Of a stretch of 64,000 nucleotides of DNA, positions 2,721-43,891 are shown in pieces. The position numbers and the translations under genes are program-made. Where the stretch lies: the NCBI GenBank assembly GCA_905178155.1, contig CAJINV010000002.1:3725838-3789837 (forward strand), given 5' to 3'. Within the stretch, counting starts at the first letter, position 1. Each line of letters opens with the position of its first letter. This DNA comes from Amoebophrya sp. A120. Taxonomy: Eukaryota > Protista > Dinoflagellata. The notes beneath the pieces were generated by a model. That model was not told where the DNA came from. It saw nothing but the letters and a program-made list of their open reading frames with translations, and made no database searches.

Positions 2721-2827
2721 AAACACATGTCTGATGTTTTCTGGAAATAAAATCTCTGCACTGGTGAGTAGCATTAAAAGTTCTGCAGCCACTTGGCTCT
2801 GAAAAAATACCTATATTCTGCATGAGA

Positions 2828-4937
2828 AAAATTCCATCTCAACACGTGGTCAGGTAGATTGTTGGAAAACATTACGCAAGTCTCACGCAACACAGCTTTT
2901 TGTCTTATCGGAAACACGCATCACAAGTATTCGCCTTCATTTATTCTCCAGAGGACGCAGTAGACATGAGTAGTACAACCGATATTCTGCTGCTGCTCGC
3001 CATACTCGAGTCGCAAGCCGGAGACCGTCGTGGCAAGCACGGATAACCGCATCATTGACATGGCTGGCGCCATCATCCCTACCTACACGAGACGCTCCAG
3101 ATATATGGCAATATATCGGAGGAGTTCTCGCTTGTCCACTACAACTCACGCGCTCGTGCCCTAGAATTTAAATTGTTATTCTTATTTACGGGTAAATTTA
3201 TTACGAGTTGTTGTAGTAAAAATCGTGTGTGTTTGCGCAAAATAACGCTGTAGAACTTTTTTAGCAACAAAAAAAAATCTTGAAGTCGCAAGCGGCGACG
3301 ACCCATGGAAAGAACAATGTGAACCGCGTTATAGACACCAAAAGATGACGACGAAAAGTAAAAACGATTGGAACACAACAAGAGGTGATGACTCTCTGCT
3401 GGTACTGACACAGCTTCTGCTACTCCAACCGCAGTGAAACGGCTCATTCTTTTTCTTCCTTTCCTATGCTACAGTTCGTACATTTGAAAAGCTGTATTGC
3501 TGCTTACACATTGTTGTTTGTGTTTAGATTGTGCTGCGAAACTGCACAGTCTGCGCTACAGACATGCAAAAGAAACAAGCAATAGGCTCATTCTAATTCT
3601 ACTTCTTCTGCAAATTTTACAAAAGTTTTCTCTTCCTCCATTTCCTTCCTGCTTGTGCTTCCTTCAGATCGTTAAAACATCTTCGTGTGTGTGAAACTTG
3701 AAAACAGTGTGTGTGTGAAAAGAAAAACAATCTATAGAAAACAGAAAATAACTGTGTGTGAAAAGAAGAAAAAGTTAAAATAAATAATTGCATTCGATTA
3801 AGTTTAAGTAAGTGTGAAAAGAAAAGTGAAAAAAGAAGTAACTCGATTTAGATAGTAATGCGCGATTGAGTTTAAGTAAGTGTGTGTGTTTTATTGCGCG
3901 ATCTTGAAGTTGCGAATGAAAAGAAAAATTCCATCTCAACACGTCGTGGCCAGATAAATTACTGGAAAACATGTCTTGCAACTCACGTAACACAGACTCT
4001 TGTCTTATCAGAAACACGCATCACAAATTCGTCTTTATTTTCCAGGAGACGCAGACAAGTTTACAGCCCATATTCTGCTGCTGCTCCCCATACTCGAGTC
4101 GCAACCCGGAGACCGTAGTCGTGGCAAGCACAGAAAACCGCATCATCGACGTGGCTGGCGCCATGATCCCTACCTATACGAGACACTCCAGATATACGAC
4201 AATATATCGGAGGAGTTCTCGTTTAAGTCCACTACAACTCACGCGCTCGTGCCCTACAATTTAAATTGGTATTTACGGGTAAATTCATTACGAGTGGCTG
4301 CAAAAATCTTGTGTGTGTTTGCGGAAAATAATGTTGTAGAACGTTCTTAGAAACAAAGGGGATCTTTTTAAAGTCGCAAGCGGCGACGACGCAAAGAATG
4401 TGAACCTCGCTATAGACACCAAAAGATGACGACGAAAAAAGTAAAAACGTCGATTGGAACACAACAAGAGATGATGCCTCCCTGCTCGTACATTTGAAAA
4501 GCTGTATTGTTGTTTACACATCGTTTTTCGTGTTTGGATTTGCGCTGCGAAACTGCAGTCTGCGCTCTAGGCATGCAACAGAAACAAGCATTAGGCTCAT
4601 TCTAGTTCTTCTTCTGCAAATTTTACAAAACTTTTCTCTTCCTCATTTTCCTTCTGCTTGTGCTTCCTTCAGATCGCTACAACATCTTCGTGTCTTCGTG
4701 TGTGTGTGTCGTGAAACTTGAAAACAGTGTGTGTGTGAAAAGAAAAACAATCCATAAAAATCAAATAACAGTGTGTGAAAAGAAAAAAAAGTTTGAGTAA
4801 ACTGCATTCGATTAAGTTTAAGTAAGTGTGAAAAGAAAAAGACCTGAAAAAAAAGAAGCAACTCGATGCGCAATTAAGTTTTTAAGTAAGTGTGTGTGTT
4901 TTATTGTGCGATCTTGAAGTTGCGAATGAAAAGAAAA
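2828..4937. repeat. Diverged tandem duplication, two ~1.0-1.1 kb copies
   Basis: Both copies start AAAATTCCATCTCAACACGT (~2828, ~3925) and end GATCTTGAAGTTGCGAATGAAAAGAAAA. Confidence 0.9.
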
Positions 4938-5067
4938 GAGGAGTTGATGAAACAGAAAACCTAATTTTTCTTCCTGGCGCACAGCCCGTTGCTTTTGTTC
5001 TTTTGCTTCTTGTTCCGCATGGTCAGCAGAAAATTCCTGATTAGAATCCTTGGTCTCTTCTTGATCT

Positions 5068-5328
5068 TATGGAGTGCAAAAGTGTCTGGGTCTGGAAGGT
5101 TACAACTTGTCATGCTAAATCCGAATCATGCAAAAATCTGTGCTGCATGAATGCCAAAAGCTGTCGACTTTCGACCAAGTTGGGAGCCAGTTTCTCATGC
5201 AGGATAGGCATGGCAGAGACCCCACAGACTCTGTCATGCTAGGTCCCGCATTCCAGACCTCATGGGTCATCGGAAACCTGCATGACAAGCTTACACTCTT
5301 CCAGAGCCAGACATTTTTGCAATCCATA
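5068..5328. mobile_element. Introner family A (3' UTR)
   Basis: TIR; TSD GATCT/GATCG. Confidence 0.88.
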
Positions 5329-5339
5329 GATCGCCCTGC

Positions 5340-8038
5340 TCACACCGCCGGCACCTTGTAGACGGAGTTACGCCACCCGCCACCGCACTGCCGCTCGCCA
5401 TCCGCGGCTGGGGTTATGAAAGGGGAAGTTGTATTCCAGCTAGCTGCACAGTTGTCGGATCACAATCTATTTGTCATGCATTGACTACAAAACTCCTTCT
5501 TTGCTGCACTGACTGTTCCGCATGACAACATACGATCACGCGCTAGGCTGGTGAAATTTTCCCTGTACGATAAGGTCCTTCTTGCACGGGGTGCTGCAGT
5601 CGCCGTCCGGGGTCTGTGGTTTTGTTTGTCGAGCTGGTGCGCAATACAGATTCCAACGGTGCTGTGGCACGTGCATCACAAGTTCATGTCCCTCTATGCA
5701 TTCCGTCCTTTCCACATGCAAACTCCGCATCACAAATTCGACGGCCCACTTCACTCTTATACCTTCCCGTACTTCTCGTGGTCGTTTCCGTTGGAGCAGC
5801 GAGTATGGAGAGGAAGAAGGAACGTCTTTGCTATGCATACATCGCATGACAAATTTGCTCAGCATGAGAAATGAAATTTGCCATGTGGATTAACGTTATC
5901 AAATACTTTTGTAATCATGCATGACTAGACATGATCCCTTTCCCCTTCGGGTACAAGCACTGCTGGTAGGACTGGATCGCAAAAAATTCGTAGCCCGCAC
6001 AGTGTTATCCTGTGCAAAAGTATCGCACTCGTACTAATTGCAGTTATACATTACAAATCTAGTCGTTAAGGGAAATCCGCATTACAAATTTTATTTATCA
6101 TGCTCACAAAATTTGTAATGCATTTATACGAGTACGATGCTTTTGCAGTTGATAAGTGTTCGGCGCACTCCGCGACCGAGTACGCTCCCTTGGCCATTTT
6201 CCCCATGGCGCGCTGTCGCTTGTCCTGGAAGCAGCCTTATGAACTGCAAAAGTATGATCACACTCGTATAAATGCATTACAAATTTCCTCAGCATGAAAA
6301 ATGAAATTTGTAATGCTGATTTGCCTTCAGAAAAACATTTATGATGCAAAGCTTGCATTTATACGAATACGATACTTTTGCATTGGATAAACCCAAGAGG
6401 ACAAAAGGGTCGCCCGGCGGTGCGGGGGCGGATCCGGCGGTGGCGTCCGCGCCGGCGGTCACGGTGGTGGCTTTGTATGGATTGTAAAAATCCCTGGATG
6501 TCTGGAAACTTGTGATGCTGGGTGGCGTATCATGAGGAGGCCACAAGTGCTGGCTCAGCATGACAAGTTCCTGAGCTTCTATATGATGCCTATTCTGCAT
6601 GACAAACTGCGTTTTTGCATGACAGAAAAGTGAGGCTCTTGAGTAATGTGCATGACAGATTTAAGAGTCATGCCAGATCGAAGCATGACAAACTTGCACT
6701 CTTCCAGACCCAGACATTTTTACATTTGATACTTTGTTATCCCGAGCAAAAACGCCGTCATCCCATACTCAAGATTGATGACCACTCTGCAGGACAAATC
6801 CAGAACTTTTGGAACTCAACACGCATGACAAGCTCGACTGTGAAGTATAGCGCTGCCTTAGAGCCACTACAGACGCATTACAAATCTAACTCTAACCTCT
6901 TATCCTGATTCGCGCATGACAGATTTTTCCCAAACACCACTACAGAGCGGCTCTCATGGAGACGACCTGCATGAGAAACATTCTAAATCTACATGCGAAT
7001 TTGCATCACAAATCTGGGGTAATGACGACGTCGTTTTTCCGCACGATATTCCTTGGCTGACTCTTCGAAGTCCTTGGTGTTGGTGCCGCAATCACCCTTG
7101 ATGGCCTCGACGTTGGTGGAGTTGGATTCGTGGACCGCTTTGGCAGTGTAGTCCGTTAGGGATGTGACTTCCCCGAGAATGCACGGGAGCTTGCCGCCAG
7201 CACACGGATCTTTTATCTGAGAGGTTGTTTCGAGAAAATCAAAATGTACAGTCTGTTTTGCTACCGCGTAATACTATTACAATCCAAGAACAATATCGTC
7301 CACAAAACTCTGGTCATCTTATCGGAGAGGAGTCTGCTTTTACTTGAATTTTATTCTTTCAAGCCAACATACGATGGCAGGTTTGATTTTCAATGCCGTT
7401 CAACTTCGAAAATCAAGCTGCGGAATAAAACACGCTAAGTACCTTATCCGTGCAGCAACTGTCCGCCCCGCCTTCCCACGTGCACGGCGCCGCCGTGCCA
7501 ACGGCGACATCGTCGGACTTCCCCAGCTATGCATTGCAAATATGTTCGGGTCTGGAAGGTTGCACATTGTGATGCATGCTGTAGGTCACACAAAAATTTG
7601 TCTTGCGCGAGTTAGCACAAGATACACATTTTTGGCGATGTTGATGAAATTGCATTTCTCATACGGAATACGCACTGCGAAGCCGTTGTCTAGACCTCGC
7701 GGGACATCTGAAATCTGCATGACAAACTTCTGGATTCATCAACATCCAGACCCAGACATACTTGCATGTGATACCAGCTTGTTCTCGCACATCAATGGCA
7801 CGCATCCGACCTTGGTGGGGAAATCTTTGTTGGGAACGTAGTAGGGCGTTACCAACCCGTGCATCGAGTCACACTCCAGCGCCCACTCATCCTGCCGTTT
7901 TGATGTAGTGGTCTGCTGTGATATCTTTTTGCCTTTCTTCAATACCAAACCGGAGGCTGCGAGGAGGTCGCTGGAAGAGTAGTAAACGAGGGCGGCGGGA
8001 GCAAGCACCGAAGTGCGCAGCGAACGGGCGGTGGGCAT
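5340..8038 (-). CDS. Probable secreted WSC-domain protein
   Basis: Spliced product reads LGCFQD..VAECAEHCAGYEFFAIQSYQQCxCSN..YGKTPDGDCSTPC..QCGGGWRNSVY (WSC signature); hydrophobic N-terminus; 7 introners and 2 GT-AG introns (5614-5762, 7217-7442). Confidence 0.8.
5415..5572. mobile_element. Degenerate introner (family K)
   Basis: Weak TIR; removal plus 5 nt restores the WSC frame. Confidence 0.6.
5804..5953. mobile_element. Degenerate introner (family K)
   Basis: Weak TIR; removal plus 5 nt restores the CxC motif. Confidence 0.6.
6006..6154. mobile_element. Introner family B
   Basis: TIR TATCCTGTGCAAAAGTATCG; TSD AGTGT. Confidence 0.92.
6238..6389. mobile_element. Introner family B
   Basis: TIR; diverged TSD AGCCT/AACCC. 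Confidence 0.85.
6476..6731. mobile_element. Introner family A
   Basis: TIR; TSD CTTTG. Confidence 0.9.
6738..7048. mobile_element. Introner family C
   Basis: TIR; diverged TSD TTTGT/TTCCT. Confidence 0.8.
7528..7773. mobile_element. Introner family A
   Basis: TIR; TSD CCAGC. Confidence 0.9.
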
Positions 8039-8781
8039 GGTCCTATTACTCTACGTCTATGGTTCTTTAATATACAGTGTACTATTTTACAAAAAAGACC
8101 AAAATGGGCTTGTAAGTAGGGGAAGAAAACAAAGCACTACCAGAACCGAAATAAGTATGATCTTCGGGAAAATGATTATTCCGACGCCGCAAGAAGACCC
8201 TGCAGGTCAACCGTGATACGTGCGCGTCTTTAGCATGAAGATCGTGTGGAGAGAGCAGGTAGTTGTAATAGATCTTTCCATCTCAAGTGAAACCGCAAAA
8301 GAACCTGTTACGAAGTCCTTGATCGCCACCCTCGTCTGCGGGGGTGAACATCTTCTAAACACGTTTTATACCTGCAAAAATACCTTGACATCTCGTTTGA
8401 AATTTCCTTTCCTGTTTATTTCTCCGATTAGAAACACGTAGCTAGGGGCTACTCCAACTATCCTGTATTCTCAGAAACAAAGTTCTTCAGATAAACACGG
8501 CAAGAAACGCAGAGGGTTTTGTAACCCTCCAAAATGGACATTGCAAAATCATCAAGTAGTACCGTAAGAAACAGAGCTCACCTGGCAAGAAAACGGAAAG
8601 AACCACACCAGTACATAGCGATAGCTCCTACGTAATGTTTTTTTACTTGGTAGCAATAAACCGCAAACTCTATTCTCAAGAGCAAAATTAACTTCAGCAA
8701 GAAACCAAAGCTTATTCCTCCCGGCATCTCGATTCTCTATCCCAGCAAACGCAAAAACCACAGAATCGTCATCTCCCGTCT

Positions 8782-11700
8782 TCAAAACGCGTGCGCGGCC
8801 ATCGCGTCGAGTTTCGCCCGTATCCAAGAAAAAAACATTGTAGGTGTAACTTTTTTGGAGGAACAGCATTACAAATTTGTCTGGCATGACAGCAAAAGCC
8901 TGTCATGCACAGATAGTACTTGAAAACGCCCTTTAATGGACCCTGCGATGCATGCCAAGCATGACAGACGCAATCATCTTGCATGTTGCGCATCAGAAAT
9001 TTACACTAACAACGTTTTTTTCTTGGATAGCCCGCAACACTGGATTATTCTTCTCATTGATCAGCTTTTCTTTCATCGATTTTCGTTGGTGCGCCCGCCC
9101 GGCGTTGGCATCTTCCAGAAAGCTTTTCGGTAGTATATGGATTGCGCAGACGGAACAAAAATCTCGGCCGTGGAAACATGTATTAGGCATAAGTAGGTCT
9201 TTGTCTTGCATAAACGGCAGAAGCAGTGTCTACTTTTACTAGGTTGGTCTATCTTTGCATGGAAAATTTTATGCGAATTCCATAACTCTTGTGCAAGTTC
9301 GAGGAGTGTCCATGATTTGTCATGCTACACTCTCTGACCGCAGGACAGGTGATCCGCATTTTGCATCACAGATTGCATCATTTGACAGTGTAATTCCATC
9401 TGAGCAGGCCATACGGCACTTTCCAACCAACGTTGTAGCCGTAGATGGATTTCATTTCGGGAATATGCACGACAAAAGTTCTACTGTACGTAGGTTGCTC
9501 TTAGAGCACAAACCGCACGACAGGTTTGATGCTCAGATGTTGGCGATATTTGTCATGCAGGTTCAGGCACAACGAACGACATCTGTCATGCAGTATTGCA
9601 ACTTCGGTACAGTGTAGTACTTTTGCTCTACATACCTCACCTGTTTCCCCACCACCCCTTTCGCCTATGGATGTGTCAGGATCGAAATCGACAAAATCGA
9701 AAAACTTGCGATGCATAAAATGCAGGGCACTGAAGGCCTGTATTGGGGAGCAGGCAAATGAGACCGATTGCAAGACTGTTTAGGGGTACGCAATGTGCTG
9801 CCAGAGTAGCATGACAGGAGCAGTCTTCTTTGTCCAAACAGCATGACAGACTGGAGCTGGGTGCTCCCGAAATTTGTCGTGCGCCACTTGGAAACTGAGG
9901 CCCCAACTGGTATCGACTCCATGCATCACAAAATTTTCGACTTTGTCAATTTCGATTCTGACACTCCCATATCGCCTGCCCCTTCGTGATTTTTGACGCG
10001 TCCCCCGTGAGCCACTTCTGGTATTGCATTCCCTTATCAAAAGGAAAGCCCCCCCCTCCCCATATCGAAAACGAAATTTGTGTTGCTTTATTTGAGTACA
10101 CAAATCGACTTGTATTGCTAGAAGGCCAAGGGACGCAGTTGTGCCCTCATTTGGAGTCAATTTGTCATCCTGTTTCCCGTTTCCAGGTGCTTCCTGTCAT
10201 TCTGAAGACGCAAGGTGTTCCTGCGCCAGCCAGCACTACAGTCCGCATCTTTTCCCTTCTAGCATCACGAAGCTGATTTGTGGCCACAAATCTGCATCAC
10301 AGATTTCCACTTTGATATGGGGAGGGGGCATTTTTCATTGTAATATCCCTCCGCCTTTCTCTTTTCGATCATCTTGGCCAGCGTCGTCACTTTTCCGTCA
10401 ACCTTCCGCACCTCTGGCGTAGCTGGGTGAAAGTTTTTCAGCGACGCGATCGGTTTGCCAAAATGCATGGCTTTCTCCATCGGCGTTTTGAGAATGTTCT
10501 TCTGCGCCACCGGCATCGCCAGGCACAGAGGGCTTTGGTGCACTCCGGTTTGGTTCAGCTGCACGCCGAATTTACTCGTTTTCGAAGACACGTGCCCTAT
10601 CCTGTGGAAAAACGTCCCCACCCTAGAGTCAATGATTGGGATCTTCTCTGCAACACAAAGCCCGACGGTTTGGGAATCACGCATGCGAAGTTCCTCGCTG
10701 TATCGATTGGAGTGAGGGTTAGCAAGCGCAAGGACAGCCGCATCACAAGGCCATGTCCTTATGCTGTTTCTAGCATTACAAATGCAAAAACGCGTTTGAG
10801 AATGCCTCTCATGCGGATGCGCATGACAAGTTTGCCTGTTATTGCACATCCGCATGACAATTCCGGGGTGGGACGTGTTTCCAAAGGGTATCTCCCTCAC
10901 TGGTCTCACTGCTGAACCCGAACATCCCCTTGAAAGAATCAAATGCAAAAGCATCGCACGCGTACTAATCGCAGATATGCATGACAAACCTGATTCCCAG
11001 GGTAAATCAGCATGACAAATTACATTTTTCATGCTGCGGAAATTTGTCATGCGATTTATACGTCGTACGACCATACTTTTGCAATGCTTAGAAAGAATCC
11101 AAAAACGATTTCAAAATGGATTTCGCTTCTTCCGCCTGTTTCCCGACATTCTCCGGATTGTAGTCGTCCTGCCCCAGGCCTTGTCCCACGAAAAAAGTGT
11201 TACAGTTACACATTTGTAGTCAATTCAGCAACACAAATTCCTCTGCATGAGAGAGAAAACTTGTAATGCAGAAATCCTAGGGGAAAACACCTATGAAGCG
11301 AGGCTCCTATGCATATCCGGCATGACAGAGCTTGTCTGTCTTGCTTGGCCTGCAGAGACTATGTGTAACTGTAACACTTTTTTCTTGCGATAGGCCTGCC
11401 TTCTGAAACCCCGGGTCCTTACTGTTTGTCGCCTCAATGCGAAAATTCGCCGCCCGGTGCACGTTATGAATTGCAAAAGTAACGGACTAGTTCTAGTAAA
11501 AATTGCAACACAAACTGGCTCAGCATTACAAATTGAATTTGTAATGCGGATTTGCCTTGGGAACTAGATTTGTAAATGCATAAATGCAATTAGTACGAGT
11601 ACGATACTTTTGCACAGGATACACGTCCCGAACCGAGGACCAGGTGGGATTCAATGTGGTGTGCTGCAGGTAATTCGCGTCAAAACAGCCGTGCAACACG

Positions 11701-14700
11701 TTTTCGCAGTAGTTTTGCTGGGCTTTCACGTTATCCTGCGCGGAGAGCATGTTGTCGTAGGGAAGGGGTTCGTAGGTGGGGATGTAATTCCCCGTAGCTT
11801 CGTCGATTTTGTAGATCTGCCGATCCAGTTATGCGAGTACACACCCCCCCTCTCCCTCATTTGTATGGCGTGGACAGCAACACAAACACCAGCACACGTG
11901 GAGCCTATGCATGACAAATTTATGTATCTGATGTAGTACTGTTTGGGCTCCCGGAATTTGTCATGCAAACAGTGCCACCGGGCAGCGGCTGGATTTGGGG
12001 TTCTACATGACAAATGAGGGCGTGGGGGAGTTGTGGACTGTCATACCAACCCGTGCCGGTACCACTTGCTGTGACCCGCCCACCACTTGCAAAATTCGTT
12101 ACTGCCCTGGTACGTGCCTTTGACCTCGGTACCCAACTCGGACTTCACGCCGGCGCTGATGTTTTTTGTGTATTACAAGTAGCATGTTGATCTGTAATGC
12201 TGTTCTCGCATGAGACAGTCTTTTTGCACTCCTCCCGCTGCATGACAAGTTGAAACAACCAGCACAGCACATCTACAAGAAATACGTGTAGTTTATCAGT
12301 TCCTTCGCCCCTCCAACTCCCTTCATCAGAAGCAGGAACGGCAGCAGCGCGAGCCCGGCCACATACGCTCCCGCAATGGACATGTTGCTTTTCTGCTTCT
12401 GGCAGCCTTGAAGAGACGGGTCCATTTCGCACTGGGTCGGCGTATCATCCCCGCACATTTCGTTCGACTTGCCGCGCTATGCAGTGGAAATGCGTCTGGG
12501 ATGTCTAGAAACTTGTCATGCTAGCTGGCGTATCACGAGGACCCCGCAATTTGTGGCGGCCACGCATGACAAGCTTTTGAGTTACTACTTGTTGTCTGTT
12601 CTGCGTATCAAACTTAGTTTTTGCATGACAAAAAAAAACTGGACTTATCTTGAGTGATGCGCATGACAGTTTTCAAAATCATGCTGGCAGCGCATGACAA
12701 AACTCGCAGTCTTCCAGCCCTCCCAGACACATATCTCTGTTCGATACCTGCCACATTCCGATCGAGTTGGGATCGGGGTTTCCCATCGGAGGGCGCCAGT
12801 CCTGGAAATTGTAGCCCGGCGGGGGGAGGGATCCGTCCGCTGGCATCTCCTTGGACTGAAATCCTTTCAGCTGGCACTGCCCCATACGAATGGGCACGAA
12901 GCGCAGGATTTCTTGGGACTGATGTTTATCCAGCTGGGCGTAGGGAAATTCGACCCGCGGCTTCCAGGTCCACTGCCAACTGACACAGCCCGGCGTGGAT
13001 ATGCAACGCGCAAGGCACTCGTTGGAAAAAAACCCGTTCCACGGCAGGGGCATGATAAACAGCTGAATGAACGGTATGTAGAACATATGCATTGCAGCAA
13101 ATATGTCTGGGTCTGGAAGGATACAAGTTTTGTCATGCTTGTCTGGCATGACTGAAGAGTTTGTGATGCGTATCCAAGAAGAGACCCATTGGTTGTCATG
13201 CAAAATTCGCGGTTTCTCATGCGGAAAGTGCAACACTAAGCTGCGCAAGTATTTCTCATGCTTTGCTGTGCATTACAGAGCATTAGCTAATCACAACTCA
13301 GCATCACAATTTTCCAGACCCGGACATATTTACACTTGATAGAACAGCGGCGGGAGCAATCTCGTGTACGAGTACTTCGCCGTGCCCGGACGGACGATAT
13401 CAAAGGGAAAAATGCCTCCACCCCGGAAGTTGTGATGCAAAGCTTCCAAAGGAAACTTTTTGTCTTGCATGAAAGGACTATGAGTCTTTCTGCTGCAGAA
13501 TCTTCTACATCGGTGTCGAGCAAGGCATCTTTTACATGACAGGCCCAGCCGTTGCTGGGGTCTTGCGCAACACAAATTCTAGCTATTCAGCATTGAAAAT
13601 TTGTGATGCTGAAACATGCACAAGAGGAGGAACGTTCCCAATGCATAGCTTTGCAATACAAATGCTGCCAGGTTATGGGCATTTTTCATTGCGATAGACG
13701 ATCCCCGTGATTTGGTTCTTTTTCAGCTCCTCCTTGCCGCACTTCTTCGACCCGGTGGGCCCGCTGACCGCCAGCCCCAGAGCCGCTTCCGGGTGGGCTA
13801 TCAAATGCAAATATGCCTGGGTCTGGAAGAATGCAAGTTTGTCATGCTTGTCTCGCATGACTCTACTTAAGTCTGCAATGCACGAGCAGGAAGGCAGCCT
13901 CTCACCTGTCATGCAAAAATGCAGTTTCTCATACGGGAAGCGAAAATCATAGGAGCTCAGAAACTTGTCATGCGTGGCTGCGTAACGTAGTGCGCCCACC
14001 ATTCACAAACTAGCATCACAAGTTTCCAGACCCAGACATATTTGCAGTTGATATGGGCCCGCGTGAAGCACGCTTGGTTCCCGAGCCCGTTCAGGTGCTT
14101 CTTTACCGGGTACGGACCTTGTTTGCAGCAGCAGTTGCCGTCTTCGTTTATCATATGTAAAAGCAGCCCCACGCCATTGTTAAGATGGGAAGTCCGCAAC
14201 ACAAATCCTCAAGTTTTGGAAGTTCTGCATGACAAATTTGGCCTCATAGTGTCTTCCTGTTTAGCTAGTTAAGCAGCATCACAGATCCAGCACAGTCAGC
14301 ATGCCGATTGGAGCATGACAAATTACTAAACACGACTACAAAATGCCTCTCATGGGGCTCCGCATGAGAAGCATTTTTACCATGCAGATTTGCATGACAA
14401 CTCTGGGGTGGGGACGTTTTTACTCAGGATATCGTTGGGCGTTTGCTCGAAATAGAGCAGCCGTTCGGCAGTGGTATCGCAAGAAAAAAGTGCTACAGCT
14501 ACACATTGTGTTGCAGGCCAAGCAGGACAGGCAAGCTCTGTCATGCCGGAGATGCATGGGAGCCTCGTCTCATAGGTGTTTTCCCGTAGGATCGATTTCT
14601 GCATTGCAAGTTTTCTCTCTCATGCAGAGAAATTTGTGTTGCTGAATTCACTACAAATGTGTAACTGTAACATTTTTTTCGTGGGATAAGTGGACGGTAT

Positions 14701-15842
14701 CTTGTAGTACGTGTACGCCCCTTCCTCTACAAAATCGTCCGGATCCGTGTTTTCGTTTATCCCGCCGCTGCCGTTATCTTCCACTTATTACAATGAAAAA
14801 TGCCCCCACCCCAAAACTTGGGAGCATTTGTATTGCAAGCCTTTCCAATGGCAACACTCACCGCGTTGCATGTATCAGCATCACAGATTTTCGGTAGCGA
14901 ATAACAAAAATCTGTATTGCAAAAGATCCCAGCAAGAGCGGCGCTTGTCATGCAAGTAGCGATGCGGTATACGACTAGACTCTGCATCAGAAAGATTCGT
15001 AGTCCTTTCAGGCATGACAAAAAGTTTTCATTTGGAAACTTCGCATCACAAATTATTGCAAACTTCGGGGTGGTGGCATTTTTCATTGTAATACCACTCG
15101 CACTTGGTTCACCGGCTCCTCGGCGGCGTTCGCCCGCCGCACCTGCTTCCATATGCATTGCAAAAATGTCTGGGTCTGGAAAAGTGGAACTTGTATTGCA
15201 TGTCTTGCATTCCTGAAAAATCTGTAATGCACAGCCAGCAAGAAAGGCGCTACTTTCTCGTCCTGCAAAAACGCAGTTTGTCATGCGTGCTACGCATCAG
15301 ACGGCGTCAAGTATGCCTGTCATGCATGGCTGCACTTGAAAGCGCCAGTCATCTTATCCAAACTTTAGCATCACAAATTTCCAGACCCAGACATATTTGC
15401 ATTTGATATTCCAGCACCGGGAACAGCACTCGGCCTGGCTGTGCACCCCGAAACAGGTGTCCCCTGGCGAGGGATCCCAGTTGGTTTTGAAAACGGGACT
15501 GGAAAGAAAGGAGGTGACAACGACATGGGTCGTCGTCGTGTGAGAATTGTTCATTTTTCCGCTACGACCATGGTGCAAACCTGCCGCGGTGGGAGTAGTT
15601 GTGATCAACATCATCGGCTCTCCATTTGATGTTCCTGGAAGTGGGGAAGATGTCGTCGTGACAAGCTGTGATGTTGCGTCGATAGTAGAAACATCCGTAT
15701 CTTGCAGGAACAGAGTGCTGTGGCGTCCTCGTATCGCTGGATCATCGTGGGCCGCCGCGTATGGAGGTGACGTTCCGGGTACTAACGTAAAGCGGTGGAG
15801 AAGCTCCTCGAGGGAGTTGGTAATCGAGTGAGAAAAACTCAT
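8782..15842 (-). CDS. Large Cys-rich protein with PAN/Apple-like motifs and a hydrophobic segment
   Basis: Continuous frame across 17 introners and 2 GT-AG introns; motifs SQAECCSRCW, ECLARCISTPGCVSWQW..GQCQLK; start codon uncertain. Confidence 0.65.
8821..9029. mobile_element. Introner family E
   Basis: TIR; TSD GCCCG. Confidence 0.92.
9136..9413. mobile_element. Degenerate introner (H-like)
   Basis: Imperfect TIR; frame restored on removal plus 5 nt. Confidence 0.65.
9666..9971. mobile_element. Introner family F
   Basis: TIR TATGGxxGTGTCAGxATCGAAAT; TSD TCGCC. Confidence 0.92.
10035..10345. mobile_element. Introner family D
   Basis: TIR with CCCCCTCCCCATATC; TSD TCCCT. Confidence 0.92.
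10598..10890. mobile_element. Introner family C
   Basis: TIR with AAAAACGTCCCCACCC; diverged TSD. Confidence 0.85.
10937..11090. mobile_element. Introner family B, variant AAT..TTA ends
   Basis: TSD GAAAG. Confidence 0.85.
11182..11392. mobile_element. Introner family E (TGT start)
   Basis: TSD GGCCT; reverse complement of 14475-14688. Confidence 0.92.
11465..11621. mobile_element. Introner family B
   Basis: TIR; TSD CACGT. Confidence 0.92.
11830..12045. mobile_element. Introner family G
   Basis: TIR; TSD CCAGT/CCAAC; close match to 26406-26629. Confidence 0.88.
12478..12746. mobile_element. Degenerate introner family A with GT-AG ends available
   Basis: Eroded TIR/TSD; minus strand CAG|GTATC..CATAG|CGC is in frame. 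Confidence 0.8.
13086..13341. mobile_element. Introner family A
   Basis: TIR; TSD GAACA. Confidence 0.92.
13398..13696. mobile_element. Introner family D-like
   Basis: TIR; TSD GACGA. Confidence 0.9.
13799..14053. mobile_element. Introner family A
   Basis: TIR; TSD TGGGC. Confidence 0.92.
14149..14431. mobile_element. Introner family C
   Basis: TIR; TSD TCGTT. Confidence 0.9.
14475..14688. mobile_element. Introner family E
   Basis: TIR; TSD AGTGG. Confidence 0.92.
14786..15093. mobile_element. Introner family D-like
   Basis: TIR TATTACAATGAAAAATGCC; TSD CCACT. Confidence 0.92.
15152..15408. mobile_element. Introner family A
   Basis: TIR; TSD TTCCA. Confidence 0.92.
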
Positions 15843-17749
15843 TCTGTACTATGTGTGCGCTGTGCCCGTCGGTAAAAAAGATAAAAACTTCAAGTCCCTT
15901 CGTAGCTCACAATACAACATTTTCTTTTCGACAAAAACGCGCAGCTGCGGGCGTCGGACAAATCAACAAATACTCCTGTGGGTGATGAATATATACTTGA
16001 AAGCGATGTCGGATTTTTACACAAACCCTTGATGAAATAAACGGGATTTTCGCTCTAGAAGGCACACGCGCTCCGACTCGAAACCCATTTTGACGCAGCA
16101 GCGACGCTCAGTACCTACACCTCTCGTCCCTCCTCGAACATGTTCTTCCGTGCGAGATCTCAGCTTGCGCTTCCACTGACGGTGTCGCCACCGATCAATG
16201 ACACTACGCGTACGCTGCAGCGAGACGCCTCATGATCTTTGGAGAGAGTACAAAGGAGCCTCCGACCGGGCCCCACGTGCGAAGCCAGCCTGCCTCAGCA
16301 AGCCTGGAAGAGACAGCAGATTCCAGGCACGGGCCCTGCGCCACACATCCAACCGCGGTGGGCGGGCGCCGGGGGGGCGCGGGTCCGCTCAACGGCGCGC
16401 GCGGTGCTACCTCGTAAATGGCTGGCGGACAATCCAGGCACACAGGCAGAAAAAAAAACGGACGGGCGCGCGACCCGTCGGGGCCCGAGAGAGAGCGGGC
16501 GCGGGCCTCCCTTGGGAAGGTGCGGGCGCAGGCGGTAGGCGCGCGCGGGCGGCATGCAGCAGCGGGCGGGCCCAAAAAACACAGGGCGCAACGGCCACGC
16601 ACATACGCCAGGAGGTTCGAAATGTGGCTGGAATCGCTGCCCGTTGGTGCTCTGCGGTTTCCAGGCGTCGGCGTCGGCGTGGCCAATGCCTCAGGCTGCC
16701 GCGCCAGGCATGCCCACGGCATCGACTGCCGGGCACCCACTGCCCTGCGCCCGCGAAAGGCAACCCCTGCCCCATTTTCCCGCGCATTCTGCCACCGGCC
16801 TGCTGCGCCGGTGGACCAGGATGCCCCCCGCCCCGACCTGCTGCCGCGGCGGGTGTTCCGGCTTATCGCGGGCGGGGAACGCTGCCGCCCTACATGATAT
16901 CGCGCCTTTGCTCAAATAGAAGCAGCGGAGTATCACTCTGCTTACTCACGCACGCACTTGCGCTCAAGCAACACTCACTATGGTATAAAGTAACTCTTTT
17001 GTATAGCGCTATTGCTCTTTCACTCTGAACAAACGCGAAGAAGACCATGACTGAACAAGAAGTGCGCGCTCGCTCCAATGGCGCGAGGTTGCTTGAAAAG
17101 TTTGATTCCTAGTTCATTCGAAATAGACGAAAATCATAAGAAAACTACGGTCTCTTTTTTGTCGTTAGGTGTTTCGATGCGTGGGTCAAAATTTTCAATG
17201 ACTCCATAAAAAAGTTTTTCAGGTTGAGCTGGTCTGTCGCGTGCTTGGACTCGATGAAAGTTCAGCGCTGTAGTACACATCTTTTGTAATTTGTAGGTGC
17301 AGCACATCTAACAAAGTATTCAGTATTGCCACGGACTACCTCCGTCCAAGTTTACTCGCTCCACGTAGGGCAGCGCGAATCTTCTCGGTATTCTCAACTA
17401 GATACAGCAGCTTCAGCACATAAACCACTAGCACAATTTTTGTTTTTTGTTCGCCCGCAATACGAAGAGTTCATACATTATGAGTTACAGCTGATGTCGC
17501 TAGGTGTAGATACAAAAGGTCGACCTTTAAATGTTGCATTTCTCAAAACGTTAGGCTTTCTGCATTTTAGTCGTAGAAGTACGGTGACCTTCACTATTGG
17601 GGCAAAAGAGACAAAGGGTGCATCGCTATTTGTTTATGACGTTTGTTTCTAGTTCATTAGCGATACGGTAGTATTGGTACTGATCAATCGCTAGATATTT
17701 TTTCATTCTTCAACATCGTGTGATTATCATTATAGAAGATTTCTGAATC

Positions 17750-20700
17750 TCACCTCCGCCCCATCCCCCGCGTGGTCGCGCCTCCGCCACGGTCACTGCA
17801 CGACCTTCCCGACTGCTGATGGGAACTCCTCGATCTTGCCCCCCGTTCGTTCTTGCCCGAGATTTTATGCTTGGACGAAGGTCCTGTTCCTCCTGCTCCG
17901 TGATTATTTATTCCACTGTCGCCACCAAAACTTTTCGGTAAAATCGGCACTCCGCGGTTGGATTTCCCCGAAGAGCCGCCAGAGGTACGGTTGCAGGTAG
18001 ATTTCGTTTGGTCGTCGCTTTTCCGGTTTTTAAGACAGGTTGTAGCTTTGATGTTGTTCATATTGGTGTTGTTGACCACAGAGGTCGTGGTCGTCTCGTC
18101 TACTGCATCTGGATCTGCAGTTGTTCCTTCGAGATTTAATATTTTACAAGCGTTATAGTTTTGCTGTTGGTCCGTGCTTATCAAATGCGAAAGTGTCTGG
18201 GTCTGGAACATTGCCGGGCTTGTGTTTGTCGTGCATACGTTGCATGACCCAGGACGTCTGTAATGCACGACCTAGCATCACAGATTTTTTAGCGGGCTTC
18301 CTGATGCTTACTCCGCATGGCAAATAGCCTCCCGGCGTAGCACAAACTGGACTCCTCTTGCTGCTCATGCAATACAGATTTTTTTAGAGTCGAAAGTTAG
18401 CATCACAAGTTCCAACCTTCCAGACCCAGACACTTTTGCATTTGATAGTGATTTTTATCTCCTTCACAGCTTCGTCCAAGCGGCGGAGGTTCCGGTGCTG
18501 CTTCTTGCCGGGAAGATGATGCTGAACATCAGCAGGGAGAATTTGCGTCGCTGCTGCTGCTGCTGGGTCCGAATCTGCATGCGGAGTTGCTGCTTGTTCC
18601 ACCATCTGATTGTCCACATGATGACTCTGATTGTTCACATCTTCCATAGCTTCGGCAGGAAGTCCGCCTGTTGCTGCAGCTGTCGAGATCGCCCCATGAC
18701 CTCCTAGAAATTGTACTTCATTTGTCGACTTACTACTCCCTCGTTTCGAACTGAAAAACTGCCCTGCGTCCTCCGAGCACGAGTTGCTTTGAAAAGCGTC
18801 GGTGTGCTGGGCGGTGGACTCTTGACTTTGCTCCGCGGTAATAGGACGGTGAGTCATCTCACTAATAGAAAGAACTGTTGCAGCGTGAGCTGCACCAGCA
18901 GCAGCTGCAACACCTCCAACGCCGGGTATAGTAATTTCTGCTCCCGCGTACTTCGCAAGATCCGCTTGCACCACCGGAGCAGGGGCCGACACGGCGTCTC
19001 TGGTCGTCGTGGTGGCCATCGGAGTAGTACCTGGAAAGATCGTAGAGTAGAGTAGTTGCATGATTGGAATGGAGTACATTCATGCATCTGTCGGAGATAC
19101 ATTCAGGTTTTGATATTACACAGCAGCACAGTATAGTCTCTGTATCATTCCTCTCACTGAAAAAGAGAGAGTTAGGCTTTATCTTGTTCAGAACCACGAT
19201 CATAGTTAGTTGTACCTTGCGAAAAGTGTAAGTTCAGGTTCACATCGACCTCCAAGGGCTGCTGGTCTACCCCTTGGGGAAGATGACCACCAGGCGTCGC
19301 AGCCATAATCATATCTCCTCGTGGCAAATGCAGACCTTCCTGTCCACGCGGCGTCGTTTTCAGTGTCAGTTCCGGTTGTTCGCGAAGGATGTAGCTCGGA
19401 GTAGGCAGCTGGTGGTTCACAAGCATGCTCGTTTCCATCGGCGGTGGTGGCAGGGGCATGGGCATCATCTTCTTGTTGCCCACTTTCTCGGCGGGAAAAA
19501 ATCCTCCACCATGGGGTCGTCCATTATCATAACGGCAAATATCAGCATGATTATGCTGGCCCATGCCCATCATCATCGAATTATTATTATTGCCAGCATT
19601 GCTATAATAGTTCCTGGTCGTAGAATTCGAATTTGATGTCATTCCAGAAGAAAGCATCCGACAGCTGCTGTCCTCCAGTTTCACACGTTTTGTCGGTGGG
19701 GGTAGGACTAACTCTTCTGGGCAGTGGTTGTGCTGCGGTGCGTTTTTTGCCATGGTGTTGTACATGCTGCCACCGCGAGGATCCAAAGCGGCCTCATTAT
19801 GACCACCTGTGGTAGCAGTAGTAGACATCATGATGACATGGTTACTACTGCTCTTCTTCTTGGGAATCGGAAGCACTTTTCCCAGGTTCGACGCGGCTTT
19901 TTGCTGCAGCCCCGGGAGCGACTGCGGCTTCACTTCCTTGACCGCGGAGAGCGGCTCATTGTCATTTTGACGATGCGGCGAAACCAAGACGTTGTGGTTG
20001 TGTTGATGTAGGTCTGTCGGCGCGCCGTGAGGAAGAACTGGGAAAACATTATGCCGCTGCACCATGATGTCCCTGGTTTGCAGGGGCGTGGAAACTCCGA
20101 AGCTACTCGCTGGGGAACAAGCCTGTTGGAACTGGTCGGGAATCTGGTCGAGAGGTAAAGCAGAGATCGTCGCCGAGGGTGGAGGACGGCTTGACTGCTG
20201 TTGTTCCTGCTGCTGCTGTATTTTTTCTTGTTCAACAGCATCAGCTGGCGGAAAGTGCCCGTAAATCGCTTCCGATTTTTCGTGGATATTGCCTTTTGTT
20301 CTGTGAGAAACAATTTCCGCGATGTCGTTGTAGGTGATGGAGCGAGTCGTGGTTTGGTCGTTGTTGCAACTGCCGTCGAGATCGTCCTGTTCCTTCTGCG
20401 ATGCGGCACTTACACGGCCAGCAGTACCAGTAGGGACTTCTTCATCATTATCTTTGTGCATTTCAACATCTAGAAGTACTTCTCCGACATTATCGTTTGT
20501 TCCTTGCGCGTCAACACAAACACCAGCACCACAAGGCTCCGGCTGCGCCGGCGGCGCACCCGTTACTTCCTCAAGCGAGCTGGCTACGGGGAAAGCCGAA
20601 GTGCTTTCCACATCATCCACAGCATCGCGTCCTAGTTCTTGCCCTTCCCCTTGCATCGTCGTCCCTGCTGCGCAAGACAAATTTGGGTCGCAGCTCTCAC

Positions 20701-23700
20701 AACTACCAGTACCACCCAGCTGTTGCATCATCAAATGGTGTGGCGGGGGCGTCGTGCTGGAATCTCGTCGGGGTTTTTGCTCGGCGAGCGACGGGACAAG
20801 GAGGTTTTGGTTTTCGCCACCAGCACTCGGAGCTGAATAAACAGTCTCATGATCTCCCAACACAGTCTGCCCGTGCAGCACGGGCGGCCTTTGCACCACG
20901 CCCGCAGTCGTGCTGGTCGGAACATCAAGCGGCGTTCCACCGATCATGGGGATCTGGTTCACAGAAGAAAAAACTGCAGGCGTGGTAGTTGCCTGTCCGA
21001 GAGAACTGCAACTCTTCGTACGCTGGTTATTCATCAGAACCGACGTGGCTGCACCTCCATGGTCTCGCTGCGTGGTCGCGGAGAGCTGCATTGTAGGTGG
21101 ACCAATGAGATTCCCGGCTGTCGCCCCTGCTTTCCTCCGATCGCACGACCCCAATCCACCAGCACCCCCGCCCTGCGCTTCGAATAAAACTTCTCTTTGT
21201 TTCCGGGTCAAAATTTTCGTGTCCGGTGGCGGTTTCGCCGGGTCGAAGAGGCTGTAGGCTGGGAGATCGTTGGCATGCTGGTTGTGTGAAGTAGACGTCG
21301 GCGGCGCGGCGGAAGTACAACTGCCTGGCGGCCGTAAAACTCGGTCGAAATCGAGCGGCTGCTTTTGTGCGCCGTGAGCTGCTCTCCCACCCCCGTGTCG
21401 TCGCTGCGTCGGTGGGCCAATGGGCAAGTTGGGGTTCATAGAAGCCGGGGAGCCGAGGCGGTAGTTGCCGTCGTAGGAACTGTGCAGCGGCCCACCTCGA
21501 AGATCATGATGCTCTCCCCTCAACATCTTTCCGCTTGCAGTGGTGCCACTACTTCTCGGTCCTCCGTTATAGGCGTGGTCTGTCATCCGGTGCGTGGGCG
21601 TTCCGTAGATGCTGGAGAAACCAGATCCACCGCCGGAGGAAGGTCCGTACATGCTCGCGTACCCATTGTAGTACCCGCCCTTCCCCCCACTACCGGCGTA
21701 GTGGTGATCTCGGTCGTACATCCAACTCATCATCGAGCTCCAGGAGGACCCCTTTCCCTTCATCCCCTTGTGGTGGTACGGAGACATCGAGCAGGAGGTG
21801 GAGTACAAATCCAAATCATGATAGCCGCTAGTAAAACTTCTGCCCTTCTGTTCCATTCGCCTCATCTGTTGTAGTTGATCTAGCTCGCGAGCAGAAGAAG
21901 ACCCGGCTGTTGTTCCCCGCGAGGACACGCTGTCCGTCAACGGGGGCGGCGGGCCCATCACCCCGACCTCGTCCCAATTCTGAATGTTTTTTACCACCTT
22001 TTCGTAACTCGTGCCCACCGGCAGGTTCCGCAATTTTTTCTGCGCTTCCGAGCTCGTCGCGTCGAACAGCGTATCAAGTGCAAAAATGTCTGGGTCTGGA
22101 AGAATGCAACATCTGTCATGCAGATTTCTCATGACCCATGATGCCTGTAATGCACGACCTAGCATCGCAGACTTTCAGAGGGCTTCCTGATGCACCTTCC
22201 GCATGAGAAATGCCCTGTCCGTGTAGCACAAACTGCACCCCTCTTGCTGGTCATGCAATACAAATTTTTTTAGAGTCCCAAAACAGCATGACAAGTTGCA
22301 ATCTTCCAGACCCAGACACTTTTGCAGTTGATACAGCGACCACACCGGCTTCGTGGAATTGTCGAAATGGTCTTTGTTTTATCGAGTCGGAAAAAGTATC
22401 GCAGTCGTACTAAGGTAAGTAATTGCAGTTTTGCATGACAAACCTTCTGTCCATAAGCTGAATCAGCATGCTAAATGGTCGTGTCATCCTCGAAAATGCA
22501 ATTGCAATTAGATGAACACGATACGTTTGCAGAATGCGTATTCGACTCCCGGAATTCGGCGCGGGTTTATGTTCCTTTCTGAGGGAGCAATTCGAGAGCG
22601 ACCGGACCGTGCCACCACCATTGATGTTTCTCATGTGCTGCTGTTGCTGAAGAAAATTATCGCTATTACTCGTCCCCATTTGATGTGCTGCGCGGGGCGG
22701 CGATAAGGATCTCGCGTGGTCGTGCAGCGCCGGCAGTGAAGCATTGGCGTGAAGAGGACCCCCACCGGCGTTGATGGTCATGCTACTGCCACAAGAATTA
22801 GTAGAACTGAAAGTTGTACAGCTATCCGGTGGCGGAAAATGAAGCGGGGGACGTCTTTGACTCACAATCCCGTCCCGCGTAAGAGGAGCTGCGTGGAGGT
22901 CTCGGATTCGGCCAGCTGGGTCTTCTAGAGCTACCTGACCACGCGTCATGTCACCCCCCACGGGCGGTGGTCCTCCAGCTCCTCCGATCATGCTGGGCGT
23001 GACACTCCCGTTCGAACAGCTGCGCAAACTATCAAATGGAAAAATCCCCCCACCCCATATCGAAAACGAAACTTGTTATGCTGTATTTGAGTACACAGAT
23101 CGACTTGTAATGCTAGAAGGCCAAGAGCCGCAGTTGTGGCCTCGTTTGCAGGCAATTTGTCATGCTGTTTCCCACTTCCAGTTGCTTCCTGTCATGCTGA
23201 AGATGCAAGGCTTCCCCACGCCACCCAGCACTACAGTCCGCATCTTTTCCCTTCTAGCATGATAAAGCTGATTTGTGACTGCAAATCTGCATCACAGATT
23301 TCCGTTTTGATATGGGGAGGGGGGATTTTTCTTCTTGATACAAACTCGCGGACTTCGACACCGTGAAGTTGTTCGGCGTGGGAAATTATGCATTGCAAAT
23401 GTGTCTGGGTCTGGAAGAATGCAAGATTTGTCATGCTTGTCTGGCATGACTCTGAGGTCTGTGATGCATACGCACAAAGCGCTTCTCTTGCCTGTCATGC
23501 AAAAACGCCATTTGCCATGCGGAATACGCAACAGATGGCAGCTGAAAAATTTGTCATGCGTGGCTGCCCATTCAAGTGCGCCCATCAATCGCAGACTTGC
23601 ATTACAAGTTCCCAGACCCAGACATATTTGCACTGCATAGAAAGAAAGCGCCAGTACTTGGCGTGGTACCACCACCTCCACAGCTAGTTGTCGCAGTAGT

Positions 23701-26700: not shown

Positions 26701-27049
26701 AGCTATTCTGCTGTACGTAGGGATTGTTCTGCTGCAGGTGCTGGGGGTGCGGAGGCGTGTTTGGATCCTGGAGGCTGTGGTGGTCCTGGTGTTTGCAATC
26801 GATGATGGTTCCGAAGTAAAGCGTTGGCTCGGGGAGGTCAACCGGCATGATCAGCTCCGCCGGCGGGATAATGATGTTTTGCGGCGGAGGGGGGGGAGAA
26901 TTGTTGTGTCCTCTACAACTCCCGCTGATTGTACTCATCGGGTTCACCAGCTGCTGCTGGTGGTGGTGGTGCTGGTGCCCCGCATGGCTCGGCGGGTTGT
27001 GCCGAATGCTGCTCGGCGGGGGAAAAATTTGATGTGGCGGGGTCGACAT
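17750..27049 (-). CDS. Very large, mostly low-complexity hypothetical protein (possible N-terminal OB/cold-shock-like region, weak)
   Basis: Long minus-strand ORFs (19172-22165, 24487-25743 etc.) join in frame across 8 introners and GT-AG introns (19031-19215, 23836-23984); one junction near 24.5 kb is uncertain. Confidence 0.65.
18179..18447. mobile_element. Introner family A
   Basis: TIR; TSD GTGCT/GTGAT. Confidence 0.9.
22072..22333. mobile_element. Introner family A
   Basis: TIR; TSD CAGCG. Confidence 0.92.
22380..22540. mobile_element. Degenerate introner family B
   Basis: Eroded TIR; frame restored on removal plus 5 nt. Confidence 0.7.
23030..23340. mobile_element. Introner family D
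   Basis: TIR; TSD CAAAC; close match to 10035-10345. Confidence 0.92.
23387..23639. mobile_element. Introner family A
   Basis: TIR; TSD GAAAT/GAAAG. Confidence 0.9.
25501..25779. mobile_element. Introner family C
   Basis: TIR; TSD GTACT. Confidence 0.92.
25871..26028. mobile_element. Introner family B
   Basis: TIR; TSD CAGCG/CAGTA. Confidence 0.88.
26406..26629. mobile_element. Introner family G
   Basis: TIR TATGAxAGTGCAC; TSD TGCCT/CGCCT. Confidence 0.9.
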
Positions 27050-27319
27050 GATGGTCTGTTTGATTTTTGCGCCGTGACGCGAGTCCTCGTCTAGAGAACC
27101 TCTACGACCTCTTTCGTCCTCGTCCGCGATGGGAAATACACAGAGTTTGCTTCTGCAAACTGGGAATCGTTGGGGCCGGCACCTCCGGCAGGCGTTTTTA
27201 CTGGCTATCGCTTTTTCTTTGCGTTTCGCCAATCGATCTGCTTCCTAGTGGAGGTCCACGTACGGTCACGGCTATTCTTTTTGCCCGTAGAGATGTTCGC
27301 CGATGTAAGTAAATTTTGT

Positions 27320-42852: not shown

Positions 42853-43260
42853 GTCAAAGTGTAAACTCTTTTGAAGTTGTTGCGCTTGCAATGGATCTTA
42901 CGAAGGACAGTAGTCCTCCTCGTCCTTTCGTTTCACTTGGAGGACCTCCGGCTCAACCTCTATTTAATGTTCCAGTGTGTGCAGCTCTTTGGAAAAAATC
43001 AGTGCGTTTCAGCTAGATGAAATGGAAAACGAAAACAGATATAATTGGGAAACGCAAACAAAACGTGACGATTCACGATGCGAACGAAAGCGTTTCCCTC
43101 ATCACTTTTCTCTCCTCGATAAACCGCGCCTGATTCAAGTGACTAAAACCATAATTCTCACTCGCCGCAGTCGAAACGGATCCGTCAAACATCAGACCAC
43201 TGCAGGCGCGCGCTTAGACGACACAAGTTCGGCTACAAGAATGCGAGGATAGACTACGAC

Positions 43261-43381
43261 GCGACAGGGTATTAAGTGGGGCCCCCTAATGGGGAACCCT
43301 AAACCCTGAAACCTAAACCAAACCCGGGGAGATCCCGCCGCGACGGATGCCCATCTTGTCAAGTGCGACAGGGTATTAAGT
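43261..43381. repeat. Telomere-like (CCCTAAA) insert flanked by 17-bp direct repeats
   Basis: GCGACAGGGTATTAAGT at 43261 and 43365 enclosing AACCCTAAACCCTGAAACCTAAACCAAACCC. Confidence 0.75.
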
Positions 43382-43891
43382 AATTTAGCAGTGGTTCTTG
43401 AAATCAACACTTCAGCTTTACTTATACTTTCACGGCCTCTTTTTATCTCCGCCTTGATGGACGACCGTGGAGTTCCATTCGATCTGATACTGATTTATTC
43501 TCTCCTGCCATATACAGAAGTTTTTCTGTGTTAATACATAAAATCGAGTTGTACTTTTTGCAACATGAATTTTCATCCACAATGTTCGGCCCTGTTTGAC
43601 CGTCTGTTGGTCAAAATTCCGCTTCATAAAAATCCGATTTCTGTGTGGTTCTGAAAAGCCCCGGTTTACTACCTTGTCATACCAAAATACAATCAAACAC
43701 GCGAGGCTGCTCGAAGTTGTGGAGGGTAACATTAATAACAAGCGACTCTCATTAGAAGAAATTACACCGGCGCGCGAATTCACATTTTGCTTTTTTGACG
43801 ATATATTTTTTCTTTTTGTGTTGCTTAATAATGTAGTAGTATTTCCCTTAAGTGGTCGTCGTTGCTCGCCAAACAGGCTACGGACTACTTT

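What the first reader, a model, noticed from the sequence alone, without database searches (positions are those of the whole stretch)
11182..14688. Introners work in either orientation
Seen: 11182-11392 and 14475-14688 are reverse complements of one family-E element inside the same gene. Family-A copies 18179-18447 and 58078-58339 are likewise reverse complements, both in minus-strand genes. Frames are preserved in all four. Known: spliceosomal signals (donor, branch point, acceptor) are strand-specific. Inference: recognition relies on a symmetric feature such as the TIR stem, TAT/ATA ends and TSD, resembling structure-guided cut-and-ligate splicing, or on DNA-level excision like ciliate IESs.
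Basis: partly seen in the sequence, partly recalled or inferred. Interest (0 to 1): 0.85.

Follow-up and report, generated by a model that had tools for sequence, protein, structure and literature searches.

The report
Two-way transposon introns, one cutting rule
In the marine parasite Amoebophrya A120, small transposon-derived inserts sit in genes facing either way and are missing from the deposited proteins with one fixed cut pattern, one base before the start and four after the end of the insert, which likely reflects removal from the RNA by a relaxed spliceosome reading the insert's mirror-image ends.

Summary
Observation confirmed. Both pairs are reverse complements, sit in minus-strand genes, and the first pair lies in one deposited gene. 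The window is Amoebophrya sp. A120 and the elements are its published introners (Farhat 2021). Either-orientation introners are already reported from Polarella and Aureococcus, so orientation alone says nothing against a spliceosome: inverted ends show the same signals both ways. The added result is a splice rule. In 59 of 59 non-canonical introns of four deposited proteins one register fits, N-TAT...ATA-NNNN in transcript direction, and the mirror register fails in 8. The 5-bp duplication is not needed. A 98%-identical environmental allele keeps the shared inserts and has an extra one at a site empty here. This favours RNA-level removal over DNA elimination. A relaxed spliceosome (0.5) and a Euglena-like cut-and-ligate enzyme (0.38) remain unresolved; no reads were available, so efficiency by orientation is untested. 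The scan noted similar hairpin introns in two other dinoflagellate genomes (unchecked).

The parts
11178..11393 (-). Intron = introner 11182-11392 plus 1 nt (5' side) and 4 nt (3' side) of the duplication; family E, orientation A; 3' end has ACA in place of ATA
14471..14689 (-). Intron containing introner 14475-14688; family E, opposite orientation, same gene model
18175..18448 (-). Intron containing family-A introner 18179-18447; imperfect duplication excludes registers -4 and -5
58074..58340 (-). Intron containing family-A introner 58078-58339, opposite orientation to 18179 and to 53994 (same gene as 53994)
8996..15842 (-). Gene of deposited A120 protein P0006 (798 aa, no Pfam match): 18 introns, 17 non-canonical
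17753..27049 (-). Gene of protein P0008 (2281 aa, no Pfam match): 11 introns, 8 non-canonical, 3 GT-AG
44234..50746 (-). VIT1-family iron transporter gene (P0002, 540 aa): 19 introns, all non-canonical introners
51851..58690 (-). Gene of deposited A120 protein P0007 (572 aa, no Pfam match): 16 introns, 15 non-canonical
49358..49362 (-). Empty 5-nt target site; locus L001 carries a 308-nt introner here between two perfect copies of it
9460..9635 (-). Introner intron with decayed duplication (1 of 5 bases agree); only one junction fits the protein and it is -1/+4
50206..50550 (-). Second introner intron with a unique junction at -1/+4, duplication decayed
12156..12285 (-). GT-AG intron with two introner motifs and a decayed inverted repeat; possible introner converted to a canonical acceptor
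482..63873 (-). Whole catalogue: 91 inverted-repeat elements, 137-1206 nt, median 262, 23,776 bases

Best explanation
These are non-autonomous DNA transposons that duplicate 5 bp on insertion and are likely removed from the pre-mRNA by a relaxed U2-type spliceosome, which would read the element's own inverted ends and so work in either orientation. Shown: 5-bp duplication and ongoing insertion; both orientations in coding exons; removal of element plus 5 nt; one register, N-TAT...ATA-NNNN in transcript direction, fitting all 59 introns; independence from the duplication. Inferred: the 5' TAT is read as positions +2 to +4 of a donor whose +1 G has become optional; the hairpin formed by the inverted repeats brings the two ends together and replaces AG and branch-consensus recognition; the 3' cut is measured from the end of the hairpin, with the invariant A at -7 predicted as branch point.
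For: Register -1 excluded by 0 of 59, -4 by 8, -5 by 14, 0 by 5, +1 by 44. +2 T and +3 A in 59 of 59, matching the GTA start of all 5 canonical introns here, 3 of them GTAT. The nine predominant non-canonical A120 sites in Table S4 all have T at +2, the A25 ones start TT and A25 repeats start TTA. TAT/ATA mismatches 5 of 177 against 43 of 295 in the duplications, p 1.5e-5. At intron +1, 7 gains of G and 0 losses over 91 elements, sign test p 0.016, plus one more gain in L001. All 5 duplication differences between L001 and the window fall on positions that are intronic under -1/+4 (5 of 29 against 0 of 26, p 0.053). G-U exceeds A-C in the arms on the transcript strand, 178:133 in 59 introns, while internal substitutions are strand-symmetric, 226:231. 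A120 keeps nearly all spliceosomal proteins, U1 proteins included. A U2 spliceosome removes TIR-derived non-canonical introns in Fritillaria.
Against: No AG preference (1 of 59 end in AG at this register; no drift to A at -2 or G at -1), no overall G excess at +1 (21 of 59 against 29% G in exons), CTAAC in 0 of 59. The donor bases are predicted paired, probability 0.71-0.79, and would need unwinding. U1 snRNA was not detected in A120. The G-gain test was chosen after seeing the data and weakens to 5:0 (p 0.06) on well-kept duplications and 4:0 (p 0.125) on annotated introns. The G-U excess is absent from the outer 20 nt (44:46) and family-level p runs from 0.001 to 0.13 over six settings. The invariance of -7 A rests on few changes (3 at +4, 3 at -5, 1 at -6, none at +2, +3, -7 in 91). 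Junctions come from deposited gene models, not from reads.
Confidence: 0.5

Rival explanations
1. A separate, non-spliceosomal RNA pathway, as proposed for euglenid and diplonemid nonconventional introns: a nuclease docks on the end of the hairpin, cuts 1 nt before and 4 nt after the TAT/ATA pairs, and a ligase joins the exons.
For: Same anatomy as the Euglena code N3-CDG...CH'G-N5-6, a short inverted triplet with staggered cuts. No AG or branch consensus. Strong hairpins, z -7.3 and -4.6 for the two family-E copies, predicted in 95% of 58 introns as found and 90% when flipped. G-U excess on the RNA strand. RNase III-plus-ligase and tRNA-type routes are proposed for diplonemids.
Against: It does not explain why the invariant bases coincide with canonical +2 U and +3 A in A120 and apparently in A25, the drift to G at +1, or the GT-AG intron at 12156-12285 that looks like a converted introner (one case).
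Confidence: 0.38
2. Programmed DNA elimination like ciliate IES excision: the elements leave the DNA at some life stage before transcription.
For: Transposon ends with a shared subterminal motif (250 hits in 23.8 kb of elements against 24 in 40.2 kb outside) could bind a transposase-like enzyme; no stage-resolved DNA reads were examined.
Against: A two-fold symmetric DNA cut should give -1 and -4 products alike, yet 8 of 8 deciding introns exclude -4; all genes here are on one strand, so transcript and chromosome direction are not separated. An independent environmental allele keeps the six shared elements. G-U bias is RNA-strand specific. From my own knowledge, Amoebophrya has no separate germline nucleus to keep the elements.
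Confidence: 0.04
3. The introns are cDNA artefacts: reverse transcriptase jumps across a hairpin between direct repeats.
For: Hairpin plus direct repeat is the recalled recipe for template switching, and the gene models rest on cDNA.
Against: Retention would break the protein in 59 of 59. The spliced VIT1 domain aligns without gaps to three independent relatives over the stretches they cover. Introns with no usable repeat are cut in the same register.
Confidence: 0.03

Closest known systems
Amoebophrya A120 introner elements (Farhat et al. 2021, PMC7789003)
   Same: Same organism and elements: inverted repeats starting TAT + 7 + AAA, 3-5 nt direct repeats, non-canonical sites, RNA-seq-supported introns.
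   Different: The Fig. 3 legend calls the splice position variable and the border unknown; here one register fits 59 of 59. The Fig. S23 legend ('1-5 nucleotides') may already show it, but I could not see the figure. Element orientation was not in the passages I read.
Either-orientation introners of Polarella glacialis and Aureococcus (Roy et al., bioRxiv 10.1101/2020.10.14.339549)
   Same: DNA-transposon introners creating introns in both strand orientations, with a bias to one.
   Different: They build GT/GC/GA-AG sites from the element and the duplication; A120 needs neither G at +1 nor AG.
Euglena nonconventional introns (Nomura et al. 2025, PMC12501133)
   Same: Short inverted triplet near both ends, staggered cuts, slidable direct repeats, suspected MITE origin.
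   Different: Triplet CDG/CH'G at N3 and N5-6 with a purine opening the next exon; A120 has TAT/ATA at N1 and N4 and no clear purine rule (38 of 59, background 57%).
Fritillaria borealis non-canonical introns (bioRxiv 10.1101/2025.08.15.670264; PMC13326754)
   Same: TIR-transposon introns without GT-AG, removed by the U2 spliceosome.
   Different: Fritillaria keeps preferred end dinucleotides and U1; A120 ends are free at +1, -2 and -1, and U1 snRNA was not found.

Membership tests
Amoebophrya A120 introner elements | Organism is A120 | tested here: met
   three exons match proteins named Amoebophrya sp. A120 at 100%
Amoebophrya A120 introner elements | Inverted repeat starting TAT, seven variable bases, AAA | tested here: met
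   TAT 59/59/56 of 59; A at +12 to +14 in 46, 50, 54 of 59
Amoebophrya A120 introner elements | 3-5 nt direct repeat at the borders | tested here: met
   5 nt: 36 of 59 perfect; other lengths 0-1 of 59
Amoebophrya A120 introner elements | Junction supported by RNA reads | not testable with these tools
   no reads obtained; only deposited proteins from a transcript-guided pipeline
MITE / TIR DNA transposon | TIRs, fixed-length duplication, filled and empty alleles | tested here: met
MITE / TIR DNA transposon | Cognate transposase | not tested
   no genome was held; one ORF in the nested insert had no Pfam match
Canonical U2 introns | GT/GC-AG ends | tested here: not met
   59 of 64 cannot be GT-AG; GC/GA-AG possible in 4, AT-AC in 2, neither GT nor AG in 13
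Canonical U2 introns | Donor U at +2 and A at +3 | tested here: met
   59 of 59
Canonical U2 introns | Branch consensus near the 3' end | tested here: not met
   CTAAC 0 of 59; YTRAY 23 of 59 against 13 in mid-intron, mostly from the ATA end of some families
Canonical U2 introns | Lariat product, snRNP dependence | not testable with these tools
   needs bench work
Euglenid nonconventional introns | N3-CDG...CH'G-N5-6 code | tested here: not met
   N1-TAT...ATA-N4 instead
Euglenid nonconventional introns | End-to-end hairpin with staggered cuts | tested here: met
Euglenid nonconventional introns | Circular excised product | not testable with these tools
   needs bench work
Ciliate IES | TA-bounded, strand-symmetric excision (features recalled) | tested here: not met
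   variable 5-nt duplication; 8 introns exclude the mirror register
Ciliate IES | Absent from somatic DNA | tested here: inconclusive
   one independent DNA allele keeps six shared elements; no stage-resolved DNA

The most novel reading that the evidence does not exclude
A120 has a second mRNA splicing system: an enzyme that recognises the end of an RNA hairpin closed by UAU/AUA, cuts 1 and 4 bases outside it and ligates the exons, evolved independently of the Euglena system and making any insertion of these transposons harmless in either orientation.
Probability: 0.35. Interest if true: 0.9.

Novelty: already known. Interest (0 to 1): 0.52.

Why it matters
How Amoebophrya removes its tens of thousands of non-canonical introns is open. 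The published picture is a wide variety of splice sites with unknown borders. One rule, N-TAT...ATA-NNNN, would turn that variety into a by-product of random target sequences, fix gene annotation, and name the bases to mutate and the branch point to look for. Either outcome is of interest: a spliceosome indifferent to +1 G and the terminal AG, or a second splicing machine parallel to Euglena's.

Tried and rejected
No whole genome and no sequencing reads were available, so genome-wide counts and efficiency by orientation are untested. Rfam scan of the window: 0 matches. T shortage at duplication position 5 (4 of 59, p 0.018, one of ten tests) did not repeat in the 32 unannotated elements (6 of 32), dropped. 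The subterminal motif as a branch point: rejected, it is intact more often in the 5' arm (29 elements 5' only, 13 3' only), largely through families with the motif on one arm. Orientation bias: borderline, p 0.057-0.061 for all elements, 0.12-0.15 for annotated ones. Open-frame length alone cannot fix the removed length (2, 5 and 8 nt all open three of four genes; only 5 gave 1260 aa in the unannotated gene); the 5 comes from the duplication and the deposited proteins. Rows dropped from the catalogue: 6092-6303 (a pairing across two neighbours, replaced by 6006-6154 and 6238-6389) and 2711-2984 (weak); eight elements were added by eye; decayed elements near 5416-5930, 36400-36620 and 62500-62760 were not catalogued. 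Huff 2016 was not held; the Aureococcus statement is second-hand.
Full report
Observation. The two family-E copies align as reverse complements with 194 identities, 16 mismatches and 5 gap columns (138/62/25 on the same strand), the two family-A copies with 231/31/7 (178/62/51). A scan for paired ends gave 79 elements; after replacing one, dropping one, adding eight by eye and adding those found through proteins, the catalogue has 91 elements of 137-1206 nt covering 23,776 bases. Clustering on the interior only (ends trimmed) gave 14 families with no orientation conflicts; 10 hold both orientations, 7 of 12 when only annotated introns count. A lean to one orientation is borderline (p 0.057).

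Identity. Three exons match proteins named Amoebophrya sp. A120 at 100%; a fourth returned the unnamed P0008, also 100%. The ends fit the published A120 introner motif, TAT plus seven bases plus AAA. The four proteins map to 64 introns, all on the minus strand. Five can be GT-AG; 59 cannot. Keeping any of the 59 would break the protein. P0006 covers both 11182 and 14475; P0007 holds family A in both orientations (53994 against 54339 and 58078). The spliced VIT1 domain aligns without gaps to three independent relatives over the stretches they cover.

The cut rule. The duplication is 5 nt (36 of 59 perfect, other lengths at most 1), so most junctions can slide. Where the copies differ, the deposited protein limits the junction. 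A donor one base before TAT, with the acceptor four bases after ATA, is excluded by 0 of 59 introns; -2 by 6, -3 by 7, -4 by 8, -5 by 14, 0 by 5, +1 by 44. Eleven introns decide between -4, -1 and 0, two of them uniquely. I placed each element start by the best TAT/ATA match among allowed junctions; the best hairpin register agreed independently in 55 of 59. Six introns whose copies agree at 1-2 of 5 bases still obey, so the duplication is not a signal. The gene models came from a transcript-guided pipeline; I saw no reads.

Independent allele. One metagenome locus, L001, 1 of 166 candidate stretches, matches the VIT1 gene at 1664 identities and 28 mismatches. It keeps the six shared elements and carries an extra 308-nt element between perfect 5-nt copies of a site that is single in the window at 49358-49362. 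Element-free sites are thus insertion polymorphisms. Its five duplication differences all lie on positions that are intronic under -1/+4 (5 of 29 against 0 of 26, p 0.053), a check that uses no annotation of the junction itself.

RNA or DNA. A symmetric DNA cut should give -1 and -4 alike; 8 of 8 deciding introns exclude -4. All genes here lie on one strand, which limits this argument. In the arms G-U outnumbers A-C on the transcript strand (178:133 in 59 introns, 269:204 in 91, 60-nt arms), not in the outer 20 nt (44:46), while internal substitutions are strand-symmetric (226:231); family-level p is 0.001-0.13 over six settings. Elements fold slightly better as transcribed than flipped (58 elements, p 0.007), and the arms pair either way (95% and 90%). 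Removal from RNA is the likely level.

Which machine. For a spliceosome: +2 T and +3 A are invariant and match the GTA of all five canonical introns; Table S4 lists nine predominant A120 sites, all with T at +2, and A25 sites starting TT, with A25 repeats starting TTA; the TAT/ATA bases are held far more than the duplication (5 of 177 against 43 of 295); intron +1 has gained G 7 times and lost it 0 times in 91 elements (p 0.016; weaker in subsets; post hoc); one GT-AG intron looks like a converted introner. Against: no AG or branch consensus, no overall G excess at +1, donor bases predicted paired, U1 snRNA not found, and a close anatomical match to the Euglena code, for which a separate machinery is suggested. 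I put 0.5 on a relaxed spliceosome and 0.38 on cut-and-ligate.

What is in print. Farhat 2021 (PMC7789003): abstract, sections 10-12, 16, 19, 20, 25, passages, and supplement parts 2-3 of 5 as text; figures not seen, and Figs 3, S19-S25 bear on the register claim. It describes the elements and calls the border unknown; the S23 legend may already show the offsets. The 'orientation' hits I saw concerned genes (3 of 4 in the main text, 2 of 3 in the supplement). Roy 2020 preprint: passages, either-orientation introners. Nomura 2025: first part and discussion. Tunicate papers: introduction and passages. Passages only: PMC12130899, PMC11282704, PMC12005148, PMC9860276, PMC12621601, PMC11453091. Searches pairing Amoebophrya with orientation, lariat, U1 snRNA, sliding or splicing showed no paper stating the rule or the mechanism; subscription journals are mostly outside the library.

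Verdict. Real and already known as a system; orientation independence follows from the inverted ends and has precedent. The fixed transcript-directed register is the part worth following, because it makes the unknown mechanism testable.

Noticed in passing
L001 against window 48957-50210: The intronic remnants of the duplications differ at 5 of 29 positions against 17 of 1192 in intron bodies (p 1e-4) and 6 of 412 in exons: unexplained fast change right at the splice sites.
   Followed up: partly
54339-55544: Family-A introner with a 945-nt nested insert between 9-nt direct repeats; still removed as one 1211-nt intron in P0007. Its 185-codon frame has no Pfam match.
   Followed up: partly
L001, 3' arm of the copy matching 49029-49296: A 99-nt insertion splits the inverted repeat about 22 nt from its end; a natural test of how much stem is needed.
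   Followed up: no
all elements: Shared 8-nt subterminal motif TGTVATGC in 87 of 91 elements across unrelated families, mostly 30-45 nt from an end; likely a transposase binding site.
   Followed up: partly
12156-12285: GT-AG intron with introner motifs; uses a CAG 12 nt past the apparent old end, so four codons may have been lost.
   Followed up: partly
28160-28830: Intergenic cluster of direct and inverted copies of a 10-nt unit.
   Followed up: no
about 3000-3920 and 4060-4930: Two diverged tandem copies of a non-coding-looking block.
   Followed up: no
31131-32356 (-): Phosphomannomutase-like reading frame (name recalled, not searched) with two family-A introners.
   Followed up: no
15409-18178, 26630-31418, 32111-35522, 18448-22071: Long stretches with no catalogued element, both intergenic and one 2.9-kb exon, while the VIT1 domain is cut into 35-190 nt exons.
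   Followed up: no
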